Source: a virus (taxonomy: Duplodnaviria; Heunggongvirae; Uroviricota; Caudoviricetes). From it: DNA of 15,227 nucleotides. This document shows, one piece after another, positions 1 to 7,092 of the stretch. The stretch covers positions 1 to 15,227 of the IMG/VR virus record IMGVR_UViG_2740892422_000006, one strand, 5' to 3'. The notes under the pieces are model-generated. The model saw only the letters and a program-made list of their open reading frames with translations, searched no databases and was not told the origin of the DNA. Made by a program: the position numbers and the translations under genes. How positions within the stretch are numbered: the stretch's first letter is position 1; each line of letters begins with the position of its first letter.

Positions 1-7
1 CACTGGG

Positions 8-169
8 TTATCGCTCGCCACGGGAATATCTGCGGCAGCAGGCCAGTAATGGATTAAGTGATAACAGGTGTCTGGAAATATAGGGGCAAATCCAATCACG
101 TACAACAGCCCAACCCAGAACCCATCCCTGATTATCAGGATCAGCCTTCAGGTTATTTTCTACAAACAT
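8..169 (-). CDS. Hypothetical small protein (53 aa)
   Basis: ATG at 169 preceded by AAGGAG SD with 6-nt spacer; the ORF-track start at 199 lacks an SD. No recognisable motif. Confidence 0.3.
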   Translation of the reverse strand: MFVENNLKADPDNQGWVLGWAVVRDWICPYISRHLLSLNPLLACCRRYSRGER

Positions 170-595: not shown

Positions 596-778
596 TCAGT
601 TCTGCATACACTGCCGGACACTATCGACTATTTCACAAACCTGAGAGGCAGCATCAAAAAGCTGACGCGCCTTATCCAGACTGACGCATCCCGCCAATAA
701 AAAAGGCACCAGTATCGCTACCAGTGCCCATTTCGCCGCCGTTCGCGGCATCCTGTGTGTCCCGTACTTTTGCTTCAT
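596..778 (-). CDS. Putative small lipoprotein (60 aa)
   Basis: N-terminus MKQKYGTHRMPRTAAKWALVAILVPFLLAGC has a basic n-region, hydrophobic core and an LAGC lipobox; GGAGGA sits just upstream of the ATG at 778. Confidence 0.4.
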   Translation of the reverse strand: MKQKYGTHRMPRTAAKWALVAILVPFLLAGCVSLDKARQLFDAASQVCEIVDSVRQCMQN

Positions 779-904
779 ATCCTCCATCCCGGGGTCAGAA
801 CAGCAACAGCAGTCAGACACATTGCAATGCTGTTTTTCATATTCAATTACCATCTTTCACTGGGGGAAAAATAAAACAAAGCGATGTCCATGCCATGAAC
901 CACC

Positions 905-921
905 CTTAAGGATTCCTTAAG
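905..921 (+). promoter_or_regulatory. PmrA(BasR)-box-like direct repeat CTTAAG-N5-CTTAAG upstream of the Ais-like gene
   Basis: Two CTTAAG hexamers separated by 5 nt (GATTC), 54 nt upstream of the ATG at 975 and followed by an A/T-rich -10-like stretch (ATAAATAAT). Resembles the PmrA box consensus CTTAAT-N5-CTTAAT as I recall it. Confidence 0.4.
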
Positions 922-974
922 AATTGCCATAAATAATCCTGCATTTTATTTTTCCTCCCAACCGGATAATTCCA

Positions 975-1556
975 ATGAGAACTCAGGCCATAAAAAAATA
1001 TTTAGTCATATCTTTTCTCACAATTCTCACCGTAATTTCATACATAATCTTTGCCAGAACGCCGGTGATGCTTGATGGAAGTGATGTCACTAAAATCAGC
1101 AGGCAATATCCGGTTATTTTTCTCATCAGACATGGAGAAAGATGCGATCGCTCTCAAAACAAATGTCTGTCAGCCCACGAAGGGATCACTGTAAACGGAG
1201 CTAATAAAGCCCGGGAATATGGAAAAATATTCAACAACATGTTTCCATCATACGGTCTCTATTCCACAGATACCCTAAGAACCGTACAAACTGCCACTTA
1301 TTTTTCAGGTGGCAAAACACCGGTTATCCCGGAGATGTCAACTTGTGATGATGATGCAATAAATAACATTCTTAAAATTTCACAACAGAATAAAGTCACT
1401 GTGATTTTCACACACAATCATTGTCTGTCAAAAATCGCAAGAAAAATGAACGGATGGCGGTTAAAATCTGATTACCTCGAGACGCTGGTTCTGCACAGGG
1501 ACAATAATAACCTGATTCTCGACGGGGATTTAAAACTACACAACCTTCTCCACTGA
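975..1556 (+). CDS. Ais/PmrG-family histidine phosphatase (homolog of LPS core heptose(II)-phosphate phosphatase), membrane-anchored or secreted
   Basis: 193 aa with LIRHGERCDRS (RHG catalytic motif), FTHNHCL and YSTDTLRTVQTATYFSGGK blocks that parallel E. coli Ais as recalled; hydrophobic N-terminus; AT-rich relative to flanking phage genes. Confidence 0.75.
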   Translation: MRTQAIKKYLVISFLTILTVISYIIFARTPVMLDGSDVTKISRQYPVIFLIRHGERCDRSQNKCLSAHEGITVNGANKAREYGKIFNNMFPSYGLYSTDTLRTVQTATYFSGGKTPVIPEMSTCDDDAINNILKISQQNKVTVIFTHNHCLSKIARKMNGWRLKSDYLETLVLHRDNNNLILDGDLKLHNLLH

Positions 1557-1568
1557 TTCATTGCACCT

Positions 1569-1594
1569 CCCGACCATCATTACAAATGGTCGGG
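1569..1594. terminator. Stem-loop in the convergent intergenic region (Ais-like vs endolysin), likely bidirectional terminator
   Basis: Perfect 9-bp inverted repeat CCCGACCAT-N8-ATGGTCGGG followed by ATATATT on the plus strand. Confidence 0.4.
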
Positions 1595-1605
1595 ATATAT
1601 TCCTG

Positions 1606-2160
1606 TTATATCATCACACGCTCTTTCATCCAGCCATAGACAAAGGACTCGTTAGCCTCACGTTTCTCTGCCAGCGCCAGATAACGCTCACCCTGTGTAC
1701 AGTTCAGTGCTGTCAGCATCACCAGTTCGCCATCTTTACCGCGTTTTTCCAAGAATACGCGGAGTGCGTTAATGGTTCGGGGGCCGATACACCCGTCTGT
1801 ATCCATGTCCGGATACAGCATCCCCTTCTGGTTAAATACATTCAGCCAGCGCTGAAGCATCTTTGCCGCAACTGCCGGCCCCATGTTCACACCCGTGTCG
1901 CAAAGCTCTGCGGCAATGTCCGCAGACAGGTTTGCCACCTTGTCGAAATTCGGTCCGTACCAGTAGTCTGCCTCCAGAATTTCCAGCGCCCGCCCGCGGC
2001 TCAAATCACGCATATCGCCACGGTACCCATGTGACCGCGCCACTTTTTCAGTTATGCCCCACTTCGTTGCACCACCTGTATCGTCAGGGTGACTGACGTA
2101 GCCCCCCTCTTTTCCCAGGATTTCATCAAAAACTTCATCTCTCGATTTCATATCAGCCAC
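1606..2160 (-). CDS. Endolysin, glycoside hydrolase family 108-like N-terminal domain with C-terminal peptidoglycan-binding domain
   Basis: N-terminal EILGKEGGYVSHPDDTGGATKWGIT is the GH108 signature; C-terminal region resembles PG_binding_3. Start is GTG at 2160 or ATG at 2151; it overlaps the stop of the upstream holin-like gene. Confidence 0.75.
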   Translation of the reverse strand: MADMKSRDEVFDEILGKEGGYVSHPDDTGGATKWGITEKVARSHGYRGDMRDLSRGRALEILEADYWYGPNFDKVANLSADIAAELCDTGVNMGPAVAAKMLQRWLNVFNQKGMLYPDMDTDGCIGPRTINALRVFLEKRGKDGELVMLTALNCTQGERYLALAEKREANESFVYGWMKERVMI

Positions 2161-2813: not shown

Positions 2814-2946
2814 ACTTTTTCTCCTGTAAATAAAAAAGGGCCACCAGCACACCATCTGCCAGCACCGACATCAGCCGTCCGGTGAAATCCACCACCACTA
2901 CCAGAAACAGCAGGATGGCAGCCAGTACAAGGCGCGCACTTTTCAC
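2806..2946 (-). CDS. Small hydrophobic ORF (46 aa, MKSARLVLAAILLFLVVVVDFTGRLMSVLADGVLVALFYLQEKKYV), possible lysis-regulatory membrane peptide
   Basis: GTG start at 2946 overlaps the TerB-like stop (GTGA); its TGA stop overlaps the holin ATG (ATGTCTGA). Not in the ORF track because it is shorter than 60 aa. Confidence 0.3.
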   Translation of the reverse strand: MKSARLVLAAILLFLVVVVDFTGRLMSVLADGVLVALFYLQEKKYV

Positions 2947-3368
2947 AGATACTGCTCCAGCGGTAACTGCAGCGCCTGAGCAATTTTCTTGAGCTGCGCT
3001 TCTTCATCCGGACCAATGCCGTCCTGGTCTGCGATATCCAGACACAGGCACAGCACATTAACTGCATCATCAGTACCTGCAACATCAGCCAGCTGACGAA
3101 GGGCTTCGGCATTGGCAGAACGCGGTGACGCTTCATAACGGGCGCGGATATTGGCGCTCATCTGGGCAATCTCACCGGAGAACGGCGCAAAGGACGGAAG
3201 CGCTGCAATGGTTTTCTCCAGTACCGCAATTTCTTTCGCGTCACAGGTGCCGTCAGCGTATGCAATGGAATACGCACCCCAGACGGTTGCCTCCACTGCG
3301 TCGCGGTTCTCCATCTTCTTCACTTCGGTAATGGCCTTGCGGGTTTTCTTTTTGAAAATACCAAACAT
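2943..3368 (-). CDS. TerB-like (tellurite-resistance TerB fold) protein, 141 aa
   Basis: Two ADG/DG-containing acidic helical repeats (SIAYADGTCDAKEIAVLEKTIAAL and LCLCLDIADQDGIGPDEEAQLKKIAQAL) typical of the TerB fold; ATG at 3368 with AAGGAA upstream. Confidence 0.5.
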   Translation of the reverse strand: MFGIFKKKTRKAITEVKKMENRDAVEATVWGAYSIAYADGTCDAKEIAVLEKTIAALPSFAPFSGEIAQMSANIRARYEASPRSANAEALRQLADVAGTDDAVNVLCLCLDIADQDGIGPDEEAQLKKIAQALQLPLEQYL

Positions 3369-3738: not shown

Positions 3739-3820
3739 TGGACCGTCACCGGGGACTCGAACCCCGCACCACAAAACAACAATACGTGTTATGCACTCTT
3801 ACCCGATGAGTTAGTGACGG
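3739..3820 (-). tRNA. Degenerate tRNA-like gene or tRNA pseudogene (intact acceptor, D and T arms; aberrant anticodon arm)
   Basis: Minus strand reads CCGTCAC-TA-ACTC...GAGT...CGGGG-TTCGAGT-CCCCG-GTGACGG-T-CCA; acceptor and T arms are perfect, but the anticodon arm plus variable region is about 28 nt and does not fold canonically. Confidence 0.4.
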
Positions 3821-3879
3821 TTTTTTGTTCTGTGGGAATCCAGCCTGACGACAGAATTACTGGAACACCTTGCAAAAAA

Positions 3880-3905
3880 AGCCAGCCACCAGAGACTGGC
3901 TGGCA
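3880..3905 (-). terminator. Intrinsic terminator-like hairpin (minus strand)
   Basis: GCCAGCC-N10-GGCTGGC, followed on the minus strand by TTTTTTTG. Confidence 0.35.
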
Positions 3906-4082
3906 AATGACAGAGTTTAAATGATTCATCATACAATCGTCGTTACAGGGGAATCCTGCGGTGCAGCAAGATACAGAAATGTAAGCAAACTAACAATAAG
4001 CAAGCACAGCATATTCGGAATTAGTTATAATTTTAACGATGCAGTGCTTATTCAGCATGCAATTCTGCAAATTACCAAAAAA

Positions 4083-4100
4083 AACCGCCTGCTAAGGCGG
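4083..4100 (-). terminator. Intrinsic terminator-like hairpin (minus strand)
   Basis: ACCGCC-TTAGCA-GGCGGT, followed on the minus strand by a T8 run. Confidence 0.4.
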
Positions 4101-4465
4101 TGGTCAAATCAGTAAGTGCTGAAGAGTATTATTATAATACAAGTGAGGTGTCGGGTGCCTCCCGAAATACCTGACATTCCATCAGATACTGTAGTTTCCC
4201 GGCTAAACTACTTAAACCACCCCGCACATGGAGTTCACCTCATTTTGTGATGTTAACAACATCGGGATAGTGCATAATCAGCCCCTGCCAGGAAATATCA
4301 AAAATCCCACCAATAATGCACTATTCCGATAGCGTCAAAAAACACAGCACCGAAATCATAACTGGTCTCCGTTATAATTCGGGAGCGCGATAAGGGATAT
4401 ACGAGACCTTTTCCCGCGAGAAAAAAAACGCCAGTGCTGAAAAACCTGTACCTCATTTGTTTTGC

Positions 4466-4540
<75 letters not shown>

Positions 4541-4543
4541 ATA

Positions 4544-4619
<76 letters not shown>

Positions 4620-4621
4620 AC

Positions 4622-4698
4622 TGGACCGCCACCGGGGACTCGAACCTCGCACACTCAACTTAAAGGGTTGACGCTCTTTCCTGATGAGCTAGTGGCGG
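4622..4698 (-). tRNA. Atypical tRNA; anticodon loop CCUUUAA (UUU/Lys in canonical register, but C at position 33 and an A-C mismatch in the T stem)
   Basis: Minus strand CCGCCAC-TA-GCTC-ATCAGGAAA-GAGC-G-TCAAC-CCTTTAA-GTTGA-GTGTG-CGAGG-TTCGAGT-CCCCG-GTGGCGG-T-CCA; full cloverleaf, spaced 1-2 nt from neighbouring tRNAs. Confidence 0.5.
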
Positions 4699-4699
4699 T

Positions 4700-4775
4700 T
4701 GGTGGCCCTTGCTGGATTTGAACCAGCGACCTGGCGATTATGAGTCGCTCGCTCTCACCACTGAGCTAAAGGGCC
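4700..4775 (-). tRNA. tRNA-Ile2 (anticodon CAU, lysidine-type; Met identity not excluded from sequence alone)
   Basis: Minus strand GGCCCTTTAGCTCAGTGGTGAGAGCGAGCGACTCATAATCGCCAGGTCGCTGGTTCAAATCCAGCAAGGGCCACCA resembles ileX/ileY-type tRNA as recalled. Confidence 0.7.
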
Positions 4776-4984: not shown

Positions 4985-5674
4985 TCAATCTACTTTTGCA
5001 ACACTTTGCTTTGAAAATGCCGCCTTTTGTTTTGAACGCGTTCTCATTACAAACAATAAAGCCCCACTATCCAGTCGGTAAAAAATGTGTTTCATTGCAA
5101 CCCAGTGACGAGTAAATGTTTTGGACCAGTTTTTAGTTGTCACTCCCGCCAGTAATGCCAGCTCCTGGTATTCATAACCTTCCCCACCAAAAAGTTCTGC
5201 TTTTACTGCCTGCGCCGCCAGCCAGATTAATTTTTTCAGGCGTTCCTGCGTTTTCCCTGCAATTTTTCTGGTACCGGATTGAGTATTAAATTCATTCCAC
5301 GCCCACTGTGTTATCGCGATCTGATATTCCCAACAAATACTCCCGCTGTAACACCACAACAACCAGGCTTTATGATGTTCTTCAAGAGACAGAACAGCCC
5401 GCCGCCACGATGATGTCGAAAACTCAACCGGACTGACCAGAGGAATTGACGTCCCCTTCGCCAGCGATTGCTTTCCCGGAATTGGTGGATTATCCCGCGT
5501 TATCATTTTTCCAGTCACTTCATCGCGGTACCGGATTTTTTTTCGCCTGTAACGCCCTGTATCGAACATGGCATTCTCTTGCCAGGCTTCAAGCTGACCT
5601 TTTGTTGCCCCACTCAAATCAGCGGTGGCGATAATGAGCTGCTCACGCACAAACTGTAAATACTGGTTATTCAT
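4985..5674 (-). CDS. Late-gene antiterminator Q-like protein (QuuQ-like), 229 aa
   Basis: Directly downstream of RusA with ATGA start/stop overlap (ATG at 5674), followed by a tR'-like terminator and the late region; position and size fit Qin quuQ-type Q. Family assigned from context and memory. Confidence 0.55.
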   Translation of the reverse strand: MNNQYLQFVREQLIIATADLSGATKGQLEAWQENAMFDTGRYRRKKIRYRDEVTGKMITRDNPPIPGKQSLAKGTSIPLVSPVEFSTSSWRRAVLSLEEHHKAWLLWCYSGSICWEYQIAITQWAWNEFNTQSGTRKIAGKTQERLKKLIWLAAQAVKAELFGGEGYEYQELALLAGVTTKNWSKTFTRHWVAMKHIFYRLDSGALLFVMRTRSKQKAAFSKQSVAKVD

Positions 5675-6036
5675 GCGCACTCCAGTTCTGTGATTTTTAT
5701 CCCCAGCCGCCCACCAGGAACGAGCTGACCGCGCACAATATTGATTTCATCAAACTGCTCGTCGTCTATAAGTAGTCCGGCATGCGTCAGCGCATCCAGT
5801 GGTGCCTTCAGGATATTGTCCAGGTCGCGGCGGCGCTTATCCGGTGGCTCCGCAATAATCTTTATCGCCAGCCTTCCGGACAGGTTTAATTTCAACCGCT
5901 GCTGGCGAACAATTAGCGCCACATCATGGCGATAACGCTTTCCGGCCTCCGAGATGAAATACGTATTGCCATGACGTCGCCAGTAGGTATTCACCGTCGG
6001 CGGGTAAGGTAAAACAAATTCTATGCGTTCAGTCAT
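5671..6036 (-). CDS. rusA: Holliday junction resolvase RusA
   Basis: 121 aa with PPTVNTYWRRHGNTYFISEAGKRYR and the catalytic acidic cluster PPDKRRRDLDN, as in E. coli RusA (PDRRRRDLDN as recalled). Confidence 0.85.
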   Translation of the reverse strand: MTERIEFVLPYPPTVNTYWRRHGNTYFISEAGKRYRHDVALIVRQQRLKLNLSGRLAIKIIAEPPDKRRRDLDNILKAPLDALTHAGLLIDDEQFDEINIVRGQLVPGGRLGIKITELECA

Positions 6037-7092
6037 TCATGCTTTCCACTTCAGGACACCCGAATTTCTCGCGTGCATTAAAAAACGAATCAGCAACAAC
6101 AGCTGGCTGCCATGTTTTTCTTCAAAATCTTTTACCCCGGCGTGCAGTTCGTTATGACATTTACGGCACAGCGGAATAACAAACAAATCGTCAGCCTTTG
6201 TTCCCATCCCTCCAAGTCCATGACCAATGATGTGATGCGGATCATCTGCCTGATTGCCACACGTCATGCATTTCTGCGTTTTTACCCAACGCGTGTATAC
6301 AGGCATCTCTTCCCGTTGTGGTTTCTGGCGCTGGAGATACTGAGCCGGTGACTCCGGATCAACGGCAATGCTTACCACCGTCTTTTCCTGTGGCGGGTTT
6401 TGCTGGTGGGCGTGAGGCAGCGGCGCAAGATTTTTTGTGCGCTGCTTCAGTATGCTGGTGGCGGTCTGCTCTCCCGGCACGATGTCGCTTTCACGGTACA
6501 TTGAGCGGATTTTTTCCGCACGCAACCCCAGCGAACGACGTAATACCGCTTCCGGTAGCGCGTCCGCCACCTGATTGCGGACCGCCCACCAGGATAATTC
6601 AGCCAACGATAATTCCCGCTCCTGTGTGCCATTCATTGCGTGACGGATGACGTCAATCATCCATGCTGACAGGTTTTGTTGTGCAAGTTGCCCGAGTGAC
6701 TCTGATGTCTGGTCGCGCAGCTGGTTGTCACAGTGCCAGCACAATACCATCGCGCCAGTACCGTAACGATGTATGACGGTTTCACTGTGATGGTAGTCAC
6801 CATGAGGCCACTGGCAGGATTTAATATGACGCAGGAGCCAGTCAGACAATGCGCCTGCGCCGCCAGCAGCACGAATCACCCGTTCGTCGCTGAAAAATGG
6901 CAGTAATGATTTATCTTCCATCAGTGGCTGGCGAACGGCAGGAACAATCCCGGATGGCAGACCGCGCATGCTTTTCGGTTCCGGCTCCACCAGCACTCGA
7001 GGGTTATGAAATACCTGCATGGATTCACGGCCCGGCTTTAGCACCACCAGCCCAAGTTCCGGTACCGGAACAGGTCGAAGTAATACCCGCAC
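6037..7092 (-). CDS. DUF968 family prophage protein (YdfU-like) with C-terminal HNH-like zinc-finger motif
   Basis: 351 aa; C-terminus CMTCGNQADDPHHIIGHGLGGMGTKADDLFVIPLCRKCHNELH (CxxC...CxxCH); GTG start at 7092 with GGAGGT SD; same position relative to Q as ydfU in Qin. Confidence 0.65.
   Translation of the reverse strand: MRVLLRPVPVPELGLVVLKPGRESMQVFHNPRVLVEPEPKSMRGLPSGIVPAVRQPLMEDKSLLPFFSDERVIRAAGGAGALSDWLLRHIKSCQWPHGDYHHSETVIHRYGTGAMVLCWHCDNQLRDQTSESLGQLAQQNLSAWMIDVIRHAMNGTQERELSLAELSWWAVRNQVADALPEAVLRRSLGLRAEKIRSMYRESDIVPGEQTATSILKQRTKNLAPLPHAHQQNPPQEKTVVSIAVDPESPAQYLQRQKPQREEMPVYTRWVKTQKCMTCGNQADDPHHIIGHGLGGMGTKADDLFVIPLCRKCHNELHAGVKDFEEKHGSQLLLLIRFLMHARNSGVLKWKA

What the first reader, a model, noticed from the sequence alone, without database searches (positions are those of the whole stretch)
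905..1556. Prophage-encoded Ais/PmrG-like phosphatase with a PmrA-box-like promoter
An AT-rich gene encoding a histidine phosphatase similar to Ais (RHG catalytic motif, FTHNHCL) sits where spanin genes normally follow the endolysin. Its upstream region has CTTAAG-N5-CTTAAG, matching the hexameric direct-repeat architecture of PmrA boxes. Inference: a lysogenic-conversion gene that remodels LPS core phosphate under PmrAB control, which could affect polymyxin resistance or receptor availability for superinfecting phages.
Basis: partly seen in the sequence, partly recalled or inferred. Interest (0 to 1): 0.6.

Follow-up and report, generated by a model that had tools for sequence, protein, structure and literature searches.

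The report
Prophage Ais-like phosphatase with PmrA promoter
An E. coli prophage carries an extra, diverged copy of the cell-surface (LPS core) phosphatase gene ais/pmrG, whose promoter looks exactly like those switched on by the host's PmrA/BasR metal- and acid-sensing system, so the phage appears to have plugged a surface-remodelling gene into a host stress circuit.

Summary
ORF 975-1556 (+) encodes a 193-aa Ais/PmrG-family histidine phosphatase. It scores 205.6 bits on NCBIfam NF011945 (cutoff 142), all catalytic and family-specific residues are invariant, and the AF2 model (pLDDT 92.6) has a histidine-phosphatase fold. It carries an N-terminal export or anchor helix.

An exact CTTAAG-N5-CTTAAG lies at 905-921, followed after 10 nt by AATAAT. 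E. coli K-12 arnB, eptA and pmrR have the same layout. Five diverged lineages of this accessory gene (dS 0.4 to >1, dN/dS about 0.2) keep box, N10 and a -10 hexamer 64-71 nt before the ATG, while the flanks are unrelated. The composite pattern hit only these genes and known PmrA promoters in 362 kb.

The gene is AT-rich (39.5% GC) and convergent with the lysis cassette. It occupies the slot between the lysis genes and the terminase in several lambdoid prophages, including an E. coli O104:H4 prophage and Stx1 phage GER2. It does not replace spanins.

It is a second copy, 37% identical to chromosomal Ais, which nearly all E. coli have.

Verdict: a PmrA-wired prophage moron, probably dephosphorylating LPS core heptose. 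PGAP already names the protein. I found no paper on the phage context or the promoter. PmrA dependence, substrate and phenotype are untested.

The parts
905..921 (+). PmrA/BasR box: half-site 1 CTTAAG (905-910), 5-nt spacer GATTC, half-site 2 CTTAAG (916-921). The 11-nt units CTTAAGGATTC and CTTAAGAATTG are 9/11 identical.
   Evidence: Exact match. Consensus from PMC3973317 and PMC10570014. Same layout as K-12 arnB, eptA and pmrR, and conserved in five lineages of the accessory gene.
932..937 (+). Inferred -10 hexamer AATAAT, exactly 10 nt after half-site 2. The predicted transcription start is about 941-945.
   Evidence: The N10 spacing to an NANNNT hexamer is shared with K-12 arnB (TAAAAT), eptA (GAGCAT) and pmrR (CATACT), and with all accessory lineages (AATAAT, TATAAT, TATATT, AACAGT). 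No start site was mapped; this is an inference.
964..967 (+). Shine-Dalgarno-like GGAT, 8-11 nt before the ATG.
   Evidence: Read from the sequence. AGGA/GGGA sits at a similar position, about 8-11 nt before the ATG, in the other lineages.
975..1556 (+). CDS of the 193-aa Ais/PmrG-family histidine phosphatase (accessory, prophage-borne clade).
   Evidence: dN/dS is about 0.2. The exact protein occurs on 189 contigs named E. coli.
999..1055 (+). N-terminal hydrophobic segment (residues 9-27, YLVISFLTILTVISYIIFA) after a basic n-region. It is a Sec signal peptide or an uncleaved membrane anchor that would place the catalytic domain in the periplasm.
   Evidence: Kyte-Doolittle 19-residue mean up to 2.32. 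AF2 predicts a helix at residues 2-27. Chromosomal Ais has an equivalent N-terminal hydrophobic region. Whether it is cleaved was not determined.
1568..1595 (.). 10-bp GC-rich hairpin (CCCGACCATC...GATGGUCGGG) between the convergent ais-like gene and the endolysin gene. It is a likely terminator for the moron transcript.
   Evidence: Minimum free energy -17.5 kcal/mol, z = -3.55, and 0 of 200 shuffles fold as well. The T-tract is weak, so the terminator scan did not call it.
786..1645 (.). Approximate extent of the inserted cassette relative to an ais-less sister prophage (E. coli PEC41). Homology stops at about 785 and resumes at about 1646, inside the 3' end of the endolysin gene.
   Evidence: Pairwise alignment.
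1606..2160 (-). GH108 endolysin, the last gene of the lysis cassette, convergent with the ais-like gene. Holins lie at 2153-2431 and 2421-2813 on the same strand.
   Evidence: PHROG endolysin and holin hits. PGAP annotation of homologous loci.
596..778 (-). 60-aa lipoprotein gene (lipobox LLAGC) of unknown function, the conserved left neighbour of the cassette. It belongs to the phage backbone, not to the cassette.
   Evidence: phrog_7528, function unknown. Also present in the ais-less PEC41 prophage, where it is frameshifted.

Best explanation
This is a lambdoid-prophage moron: a self-contained, AT-rich cassette of promoter, gene and hairpin, inserted antisense between the lysis cassette and the packaging genes. 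It encodes a diverged paralogue of the LPS core heptose(II)-phosphate phosphatase Ais/PmrG. Proposed mechanism: in the lysogen, conditions that activate the host PmrB/BasS sensor (Fe3+, Al3+, mild acid) phosphorylate PmrA/BasR. PmrA then binds the CTTAAG-N5-CTTAAG box that takes the place of a -35 element and recruits sigma-70 RNA polymerase to the AATAAT -10 hexamer ten bases downstream. The transcript ends at the hairpin at 1568-1595. The protein is exported or anchored by its N-terminal hydrophobic helix. Using the RHG histidine, it removes a phosphate from the LPS inner core, most likely on heptose II, lowering surface negative charge together with the rest of the PmrA regulon. During lytic growth, Q-antiterminated late transcription reads through the gene in antisense. 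Shown here: family membership, intact catalytic residues, fold, purifying selection, the exact box and its geometry, conservation across lineages, and the genomic slot. Inferred: PmrA binding and activation, the transcription start, periplasmic location, the substrate, and any benefit to host or phage.
For: Protein: NF011945 scores 205.6 bits against a cutoff of 142. R52, H53, R56, C57, D58, R59, S60, C64, R102, H147, H149 and C150 are invariant across 44 family members, including chromosomal Ais/PmrG. The AF2 model has pLDDT 92.6 and matches SixA and other histidine phosphatases at Foldseek probability 1.00. dN/dS is about 0.2 between lineages. Promoter: the exact box is at 905-921. The published consensus is CTTAAG-N5-XTTAAT, and the box overlaps or replaces the -35 element (PMC3973317, PMC10570014). 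K-12 arnB, eptA and pmrR share the box-N10-(-10) layout, and eptA and pmrR are described as PmrA-box promoters in PMC8129183. Five accessory lineages keep the box, the N10 spacing and a -10 hexamer 64-71 nt from the ATG, although dS is 0.4 to >1 and the flanks are unrelated. The pattern NTTAAK-N5-NWTAAK-N10-NANNNT gave 19 hits in 362 kb; all 19 lie upstream of ais-like genes or at arnB, eptA or pmrR, and none lies elsewhere or on the opposite strand of the window box. Context: the gene sits in the same convergent slot after four different lysis cassettes, in an E. coli O104:H4 prophage, Stx1 phage GER2, ETEC prophages and others. GC is 39.5% against 53-56% in the neighbours. The hairpin is supported. 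Function of the family: PmrG dephosphorylates heptose II (PMC8129183, citing Nishino 2006), and pmrG is PmrA-activated in E. coli (PMC3140997).
Against: There is no experimental evidence for this gene: no mapped start site, no PmrA binding data, no enzymology. The protein is only 37% identical to K-12 Ais overall (up to 49% over the catalytic domain to enterobacterial Ais/PmrG) and forms a separate clade, so the substrate may differ. It falls below the NCBIfam PmrG equivalog cutoff (115.6 against 170), although K-12 Ais does too (145.8). A relative in the same accessory clade is named AfrS, a 'transcriptional activator', and plasmid relatives sit beside AraC-type regulators and a fimbrial operon, hinting at another role. 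The window box is also a near-perfect palindrome (16/17), which would equally suit a symmetric dimeric regulator. A sigma-70-like TTGCCA-17-TATTTT at 924-952 could give PmrA-independent expression. The host already has ais (5413 of 5426 genomes), so the added benefit is unclear.
Confidence: 0.62

Rival explanations
1. Same enzyme fold and probably the same regulation, but a different job. The accessory clade may act on another phosphorylated envelope target, such as heptose I phosphate or pyrophosphoethanolamine, lipid A phosphates, or a periplasmic phosphoprotein. It would then serve the phage (receptor masking or superinfection exclusion) or act as an AfrS-like signalling factor that changes gene expression indirectly.
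For: The accessory clade is separate from chromosomal Ais/PmrG and only 37-49% identical to it. It is carried in addition to a resident ais. A truncated relative is named 'transcriptional activator AfrS', and ETEC plasmid relatives follow two AraC-type genes next to a PefC/AfrB usher operon. The N-terminus looks more like a long anchor helix than the cleavable signal of Ais.
Against: All residues that are invariant in chromosomal Ais/PmrG, including the family-specific RH[GA]ERCDRS..C and FTHNHCL motifs, are kept. The promoter is wired like the other LPS-modification genes. No AraC or fimbrial genes are near the window gene.
Confidence: 0.22
2. The CTTAAG repeat is not a PmrA site. It could be a palindromic operator for some other (phage or host) dimeric regulator, or a chance repeat of an AflII-type palindrome. 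The gene would then be expressed constitutively from the sigma-70-like TTGCCA-17-TATTTT promoter at 924-952.
For: The 17-mer is self-complementary at 16 of 17 positions. The promoter scan finds TTGCCA-17-TATTTT just downstream of the box.
Against: Other lineages lose the palindrome (8-12 of 17) but keep TTAA/TAA cores in direct-repeat register and the N10 spacing to a -10 hexamer. The composite pattern is found nowhere else in 362 kb except at known PmrA promoters, and it fails on the opposite strand. The scan's promoter-like hits (3) equal the shuffle expectation (2.9), and TTGCCA-17-TATTTT is not conserved in the O104:H4-type sequence.
Confidence: 0.1
3. The gene is a decaying passenger with no function in a defective prophage.
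For: The prophage carries an IS3-family end at window 1-96. Some relatives are truncated or have IS elements directly upstream.
Against: The ORF is intact and its catalytic residues are invariant. dN/dS is about 0.2 across lineages with saturated dS. The exact protein occurs on 189 contigs. The promoter is conserved.
Confidence: 0.03

Closest known systems
Chromosomal Ais (E. coli b2252) / PmrG (Salmonella), the LPS core heptose(II)-phosphate phosphatase of the PmrA regulon
   Same: Same NCBIfam subfamily (NF011945). Same invariant RH[GA]ERCDRS..C, RT.Q.A and FTHNHCL motifs, similar size, and an N-terminal export sequence. A PmrA-type promoter is predicted here, and pmrG is PmrA-activated (PMC3140997).
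   Different: Only 37% identical to K-12 Ais overall (up to 49% over the catalytic domain to enterobacterial Ais/PmrG), in a separate clade. It is carried on prophages rather than beside the arn operon, and is present in about 1.6% of complete E. coli genomes against 99.8% for ais. The N-terminus looks like a long anchor helix, and the gene has its own dedicated box 70 nt from the ATG. The activity is untested.
PmrA/BasR-activated promoters of E. coli arnB (pbgP), eptA (pmrC) and pmrR
   Same: CTTAAG half-site 1, a 5-nt spacer, a TTAA-core half-site 2, then exactly 10 nt to an A2/T6 -10 hexamer, with no separate -35 element (PMC10570014).
   Different: Half-site 2 ends in G (CTTAAG) rather than T, and the extension after half-site 1 is GAT rather than GTT. 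The promoter sits on phage DNA. Binding is not demonstrated.
Lambda bor-type morons (lysogen-expressed genes placed antisense between the lysis genes and the packaging genes). This comparison rests on my own knowledge of lambda.
   Same: Same slot, opposite orientation to the late operon, own promoter and terminator, atypical base composition, and an envelope-targeted product.
   Different: Unrelated protein (an enzyme, not the Bor lipoprotein). The predicted control is by a host two-component system rather than a constitutive promoter.
   Same: Same accessory Ais-like clade, about 55-63% identical to the window protein.
   Different: Plasmid-borne, downstream of AraC-type regulators, with no PmrA box. 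The 'transcriptional activator' label does not fit an exported phosphatase and has not been reconciled with it.

Membership tests
Ais/PmrG family (NCBIfam NF011945, LPS core heptose(II)-phosphate phosphatase) | Whole-protein HMM score above the curated cutoff | tested here: met
   205.6 bits against a cutoff of 142, covering residues 6-187 of 193. K-12 Ais scores 391.9.
Ais/PmrG family | NCBIfam PmrG equivalog model NF052369 above cutoff | tested here: inconclusive
   115.6 bits against a cutoff of 170. K-12 Ais itself also fails at 145.8, so this model does not separate true Ais from paralogues.
Ais/PmrG family | Histidine-phosphatase catalytic core (RHG Arg and His, second Arg, C-terminal His) plus the family motifs ERCDRS..C and FTHNHCL | tested here: met
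   R52, H53, R56, C57, D58, R59, S60, C64, R102, H147, H149 and C150 are invariant in 44 sequences, including chromosomal Ais/PmrG.
Ais/PmrG family | Histidine phosphatase (branch 1) fold | tested here: met
   AF2 pLDDT 92.6 and pTM 0.86. Foldseek matches SixA 1ujb, the MutT1 histidine-phosphatase domain and phosphoserine phosphatases at probability 1.00. No solved Ais structure exists by sequence search.
Ais/PmrG family | N-terminal signal for export to the periplasm | tested here: met
   A basic n-region followed by a 19-residue hydrophobic segment, predicted as a helix at residues 2-27. Cleavage and actual localisation were not tested.
Ais/PmrG family | Removal of the heptose II phosphate of the LPS inner core | not testable with these tools
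   The function is known only for Salmonella PmrG (PMC8129183, citing Nishino 2006). It needs LPS mass spectrometry.
Ais/PmrG family | Orthologous chromosomal position, divergent from arnB | tested here: not met
   The gene lies in a lambdoid prophage between the endolysin and packaging genes. It is therefore a paralogue, not the ais orthologue.
PmrA/BasR-activated promoter | Two YTTAAK-type hexamers in direct repeat separated by 5 nt | tested here: met
   CTTAAG-GATTC-CTTAAG at 905-921. Consensus from PMC3973317 and PMC10570014.
PmrA/BasR-activated promoter | Box in place of the -35 element at fixed distance from a -10 hexamer | tested here: met
   N10 then AATAAT. K-12 arnB, eptA and pmrR have identical spacing. 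The literature places the box overlapping the -35 element (PMC10570014).
PmrA/BasR-activated promoter | Conservation beyond neutral expectation | tested here: met
   Five lineages with dS 0.4 to >1 keep box, N10 and -10 hexamer at 64-71 nt from the ATG, while the flanks diverge. The pattern is specific: 19 of 19 hits in 362 kb fall at expected sites.
PmrA/BasR-activated promoter | PmrA binding and PmrA-dependent, Fe3+- or acid-inducible transcription | not testable with these tools
   Needs a footprint or EMSA, reporter fusions or RNA-seq in basR mutants.
Phage moron (lysogenic-conversion cassette) | Autonomous cassette with own promoter and terminator, atypical composition, opposite or independent of phage operons, and present or absent among sister phages | tested here: met
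   39.5% GC against 53-56% in the neighbours. Convergent with the late genes. Hairpin at 1568-1595. Absent from the sister prophage PEC41 with defined boundaries. Found in phages with different lysis cassettes. Expression in lysogens was not tested.
Spanin (Rz/Rz1 or u-spanin) | Same strand as the lysis cassette, and either an inner-membrane TMD protein with an embedded or adjacent lipoprotein, or a lipoprotein with a C-terminal TMD | tested here: not met
   The gene is on the opposite strand and is a histidine phosphatase. In relatives it lies downstream of a Phage_lysis (Rz) gene.

The most novel reading that the evidence does not exclude
The prophage-borne clade may not be a redundant Ais. 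It could be a phage-evolved LPS-core (or other envelope phosphate) phosphatase with its own specificity, switched on by the host PmrAB system. Its effect would be to alter receptor availability for competing phages, to dampen PmrB's Fe3+ sensing at the surface, or, like its AfrS-named relatives, to alter adhesin expression. That would make it a host-signal-gated conversion factor carried by Stx and other lambdoid phages.
Probability: 0.2. Interest if true: 0.7.

Novelty: new member of a known kind. Interest (0 to 1): 0.5.

Why it matters
Phage-encoded LPS modification is well known for the O-antigen. To my knowledge, phage-encoded modification of the inner-core phosphates under control of a host two-component system has not been described. 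None of the paper searches run here found a description. If the prediction holds, some lambdoid prophages extend the PmrA/BasR regulon with their own enzyme; these include a prophage of the E. coli O104:H4 lineage, Stx1 phage GER2 and prophages of porcine ETEC. Surface charge, metal tolerance and possibly phage or peptide susceptibility would then differ between lysogens and non-lysogens only under PmrAB-inducing conditions such as those in the gut. It would also be a clean natural example of a horizontally acquired gene arriving with a ready-made host response-regulator site. The predicted site gives a directly testable promoter.

Tried and rejected
- Spanin replacement is rejected. The gene is on the opposite strand, and relatives have Rz upstream of it.
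- A bidirectional promoter also driving the lipoprotein gene at 596-778 is rejected. The N10/-10 pattern fails on the minus strand (and my reading of bases 889-904).
- A PDB sequence search found no solved relative, so the fold was tested with AF2 and Foldseek instead.
- The scan of one genome per species found only chromosomal ais (27-49% identity) and no prophage copy. The INPHARED phage set has a single carrier, GER2, whose annotation truncates the ORF.
- Non-prophage relatives were checked for the box and lack it: P0025 and the ETEC plasmid copy (AraC/fimbrial context), and P0031 and P0038 (EAL or autotransporter islands).
- I could not retrieve the PmrA motif paper of Marchal et al. or the AF/R1 afrS paper. 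One paper search was wasted on the ambiguous word 'ais'.
- I could not confirm the arnB, eptA or pmrR transcription start sites from the text. The -10 assignments are my reading of the sequences.

Full report
**What is there**

The window is the early-right to lysis region of a lambdoid E. coli prophage.
- The regulatory and replication genes are a cI-like repressor (12887-13525, +), cro-like and cII-like genes, an O-like replication protein and a Ren-like gene.
- Further along are hok/mok, a DUF968/HNH gene, RusA and antiterminator Q (4985-5680, -).
- Five tRNAs follow (3739-4775, -), then a TerB-like gene.
- The lysis genes are two holins (2421-2813 and 2153-2431, -) and a GH108 endolysin (1606-2160, -).
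- The first ~96 bases are the end of a multicopy IS3-family element.

The finding's ORF (975-1556, +, 193 aa) lies immediately beyond the endolysin but on the other strand, convergent with it. The exact protein occurs on 189 contigs labelled E. coli. NCBI's pipeline already names it 'lipopolysaccharide core heptose(II)-phosphate phosphatase'.

**The protein**

- It passes the NCBIfam Ais/PmrG subfamily model NF011945 (205.6 bits, cutoff 142) and Pfam His_Phos_1.
- It misses the 'PmrG equivalog' cutoff (115.6 against 170). K-12 Ais misses it too (145.8), so that test does not discriminate.
- In alignments of 16 and 44 family members, including K-12 Ais and Salmonella PmrG, R52, H53, R56, C57, D58, R59, S60, C64, R102, H147, H149 and C150 are invariant.
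- An AF2 model (pLDDT 92.6) has the histidine-phosphatase fold. Its best PDB matches are SixA, the MutT1 phosphatase domain and phosphoserine phosphatases. No Ais-family structure is solved.
- Residues 9-27 form a strongly hydrophobic helix after a basic N-terminus. This is a signal peptide or membrane anchor, consistent with periplasmic action.
- The protein is 37% identical to K-12 Ais overall, and up to 49% identical to enterobacterial Ais/PmrG over the catalytic domain. In a neighbour-joining tree it falls in an accessory clade separate from chromosomal Ais/PmrG.
- Between lineages of that clade dN/dS is about 0.2 while dS runs from 0.4 to saturation, so the protein is under purifying selection.

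**The promoter**

- CTTAAGGATTCCTTAAG is at 905-921 and is the only exact match in the window.
- The published PmrA box is CTTAAG-N5-XTTAAT, or XTTAAY repeats 5 nt apart. It overlaps or replaces the -35 element (PMC3973317, PMC10570014).
- I extracted the three K-12 promoters. Those of eptA and pmrR are described as PmrA-box dependent (PMC8129183), and the pbgP (arnB) operon is among those cited for the pmra-box in PMC10570014. In each, half-site 2 is followed after exactly 10 nt by a hexamer with A at position 2 and T at position 6: arnB TAAAAT, eptA GAGCAT, pmrR CATACT. The window has the same spacing to AATAAT at 932-937.

Upstream regions of diverged relatives keep this layout while the sequence on either side is unrelated:

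| Lineage | Box | -10 hexamer after N10 |
|---|---|---|
| Window and E. coli C311 | CTTAAG-N5-CTTAAG | AATAAT |
| O104:H4, GER2, E10 and IMG/VR contigs | CTTAAG-N5-CATAAG | AATAAT |
| PSJ-22 | ATTAAT-N5-CATAAG, with a third phased CTCAAG upstream | TATAAT |
| Plasmid pLD39-1 | ATTAAG-N5-TTTAAG | AACAGT |
| Porcine ETEC prophages | GTTAAG-N5-CTTAAT | TATATT |

- The distance from box to ATG is 64-71 nt throughout.
It gave 19 hits. All were either upstream of accessory ais-like genes or at arnB (E. coli, Salmonella, Citrobacter, Intestinirhabdus), eptA or pmrR. There were no other hits.
- The window box is also a 16/17 palindrome. The relatives lose the palindrome (8-12 of 17) but keep the direct-repeat register, which argues for a tandem-binding response regulator.
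- A sigma-70-like TTGCCA-17-TATTTT at 924-952 exists. Such hits are no more frequent than in shuffles, and it is not conserved.

**Context**

- The cassette is AT-rich: 39.5% GC against 53-56% for the lysis genes.
- It ends in a stable hairpin at 1568-1595 (-17.5 kcal/mol, z = -3.55).
- Against an ais-less sister prophage (PEC41), homology breaks at about 785 and resumes at about 1646. This defines an insertion of roughly 860 bp.
- The same convergent slot, after the last lysis gene and before the small terminase subunit, is used in phages with GH108, M15, lambda-type lysozyme plus Rz, and other cassettes. These include Stx1 phage GER2 and a prophage of E. coli O104:H4 str. 2009EL-2050, where the gene lies between a lysozyme/lysis-gene cassette and the terminase genes.
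- It therefore does not stand in for spanins. It occupies what in lambda is the bor position (my own knowledge). Late transcription must cross it in antisense.
- About 85 of 5426 complete E. coli genomes carry such a gene by DNA search, whereas 5413 carry chromosomal ais. The prophage gene is therefore an extra copy.

**Other contexts of the clade**

- Porcine ETEC plasmids carry relatives downstream of two AraC-type genes beside a PefC/AfrB-usher fimbrial operon. A truncated relative (P0064, strain UMNF18) is named 'transcriptional activator AfrS'.
- Other relatives lie near EAL-domain genes or a serine-protease autotransporter gene.
- None of these has the box.
- In a Salmonella contig and one E. 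coli contig, IS elements sit directly upstream of the ORF and have removed the box.

**Interpretation**

The best-supported reading is a prophage moron wired into the host PmrA/BasR regulon, encoding an exported Ais-family phosphatase. It probably removes the heptose II phosphate of the LPS core, which is the PmrG activity (PMC8129183, citing Nishino 2006).

- Family membership, the intact active site, selection, box identity and geometry, conservation and the genomic slot are shown.
- PmrA binding, the start site, localisation, substrate and phenotype are inferred.
Deleting pmrG in a PmrA-constitutive E. coli did not change polymyxin B resistance, and core modifications in general had no effect there (PMC8129183).
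- A different substrate or a phage-serving role is the main rival.

**Novelty**

The protein family and the promoter type are both known, and the gene is already machine-annotated. The searches I could run found no description of the prophage-borne clade, its conserved PmrA-type promoter, or its presence in the O104:H4 prophage and Stx1 phage GER2. I rate it a new member of a known kind, of moderate interest, with a directly testable prediction.

Noticed in passing
window 1-96: End of a multicopy IS3-family insertion sequence (19,046 places in complete E. coli genomes). Homology of the prophage to its closest relative starts only at base 96, so the IS interrupts the prophage between the lysis and packaging regions.
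   Followed up: partly
window 596-778 (-): A 60-aa lipoprotein gene (signal peptide with lipobox LLAGC, three Cys in a 30-aa mature part) matching phrog_7528 of unknown function. It is the conserved left neighbour of the ais-like cassette in several phage lineages and is also present, frameshifted, in the ais-less PEC41 prophage. No recognisable Rz/Rz1 spanin pair is present in this GH108-type lysis cassette.
   Followed up: partly
L066 4859-5344 and L039 3001-3585; P0064: Porcine ETEC plasmids carry Ais-like genes directly after two AraC-type regulator genes and next to a PefC/AfrB-usher fimbrial operon. A truncated homologue (P0064, strain UMNF18) is named 'transcriptional activator AfrS'. 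An exported histidine phosphatase labelled as a transcription activator is unexplained.
   Followed up: partly
L033 3900-3980: The PSJ-22 lineage has three hexamers in 11-nt phase (CTCAAG, ATTAAT, CATAAG) before the TATAAT. This may be an extended or double PmrA site.
   Followed up: no
L067 2604-3000; L038 1-125: IS elements are inserted immediately upstream of the ais-like ORF in a Salmonella contig (the PmrA box is lost and only the sequence from the -10 region onward is retained) and in an E. coli contig (IS1). These may re-wire expression.
   Followed up: no
L031 (phage GER2, MG710528.1) 6001-6582: The deposited annotation calls only the C-terminal 90 codons (6310-6582) as the phosphatase. 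The full ORF of about 193 codons, with the PmrA-type promoter upstream, is intact.
   Followed up: partly
window 8105-9599 (+): Two overlapping + strand ORFs, opposite to the surrounding early genes. One is Ser/Thr-kinase-like (phrog_2361) and the other matches phrog_5650 of unknown function. They may form another moron or an exclusion module.
   Followed up: no
window 2943-3368 (-) and 3739-4775 (-): A TerB-like 'tellurite resistance' moron lies just upstream of the holins. Between Q and the lysis genes is a cluster of five tRNA genes: four adjacent ones (Gly-TCC, Thr-TGT, Lys-TTT, Met-CAT) at 4466-4775 and an unusually long 82-nt tRNA-Val(AAC) call at 3739-3820.
   Followed up: no
L010 3519-4121 (K-12 ais): E. 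coli K-12 Ais itself scores below the curated cutoff of the NCBIfam 'PmrG equivalog' model NF052369 (145.8 against 170). That model evidently does not cover the E. coli orthologue.
   Followed up: no
L010 4122-4410 (K-12 ais-arnB intergenic region): Only one box (CTTAAGGTTAAGTTAAT, oriented toward arnB) was found between the divergent ais and arnB genes. No separate box with the N10/-10 layout was found in the ais direction, so how chromosomal ais obtains its PmrA dependence was not resolved here.
   Followed up: no
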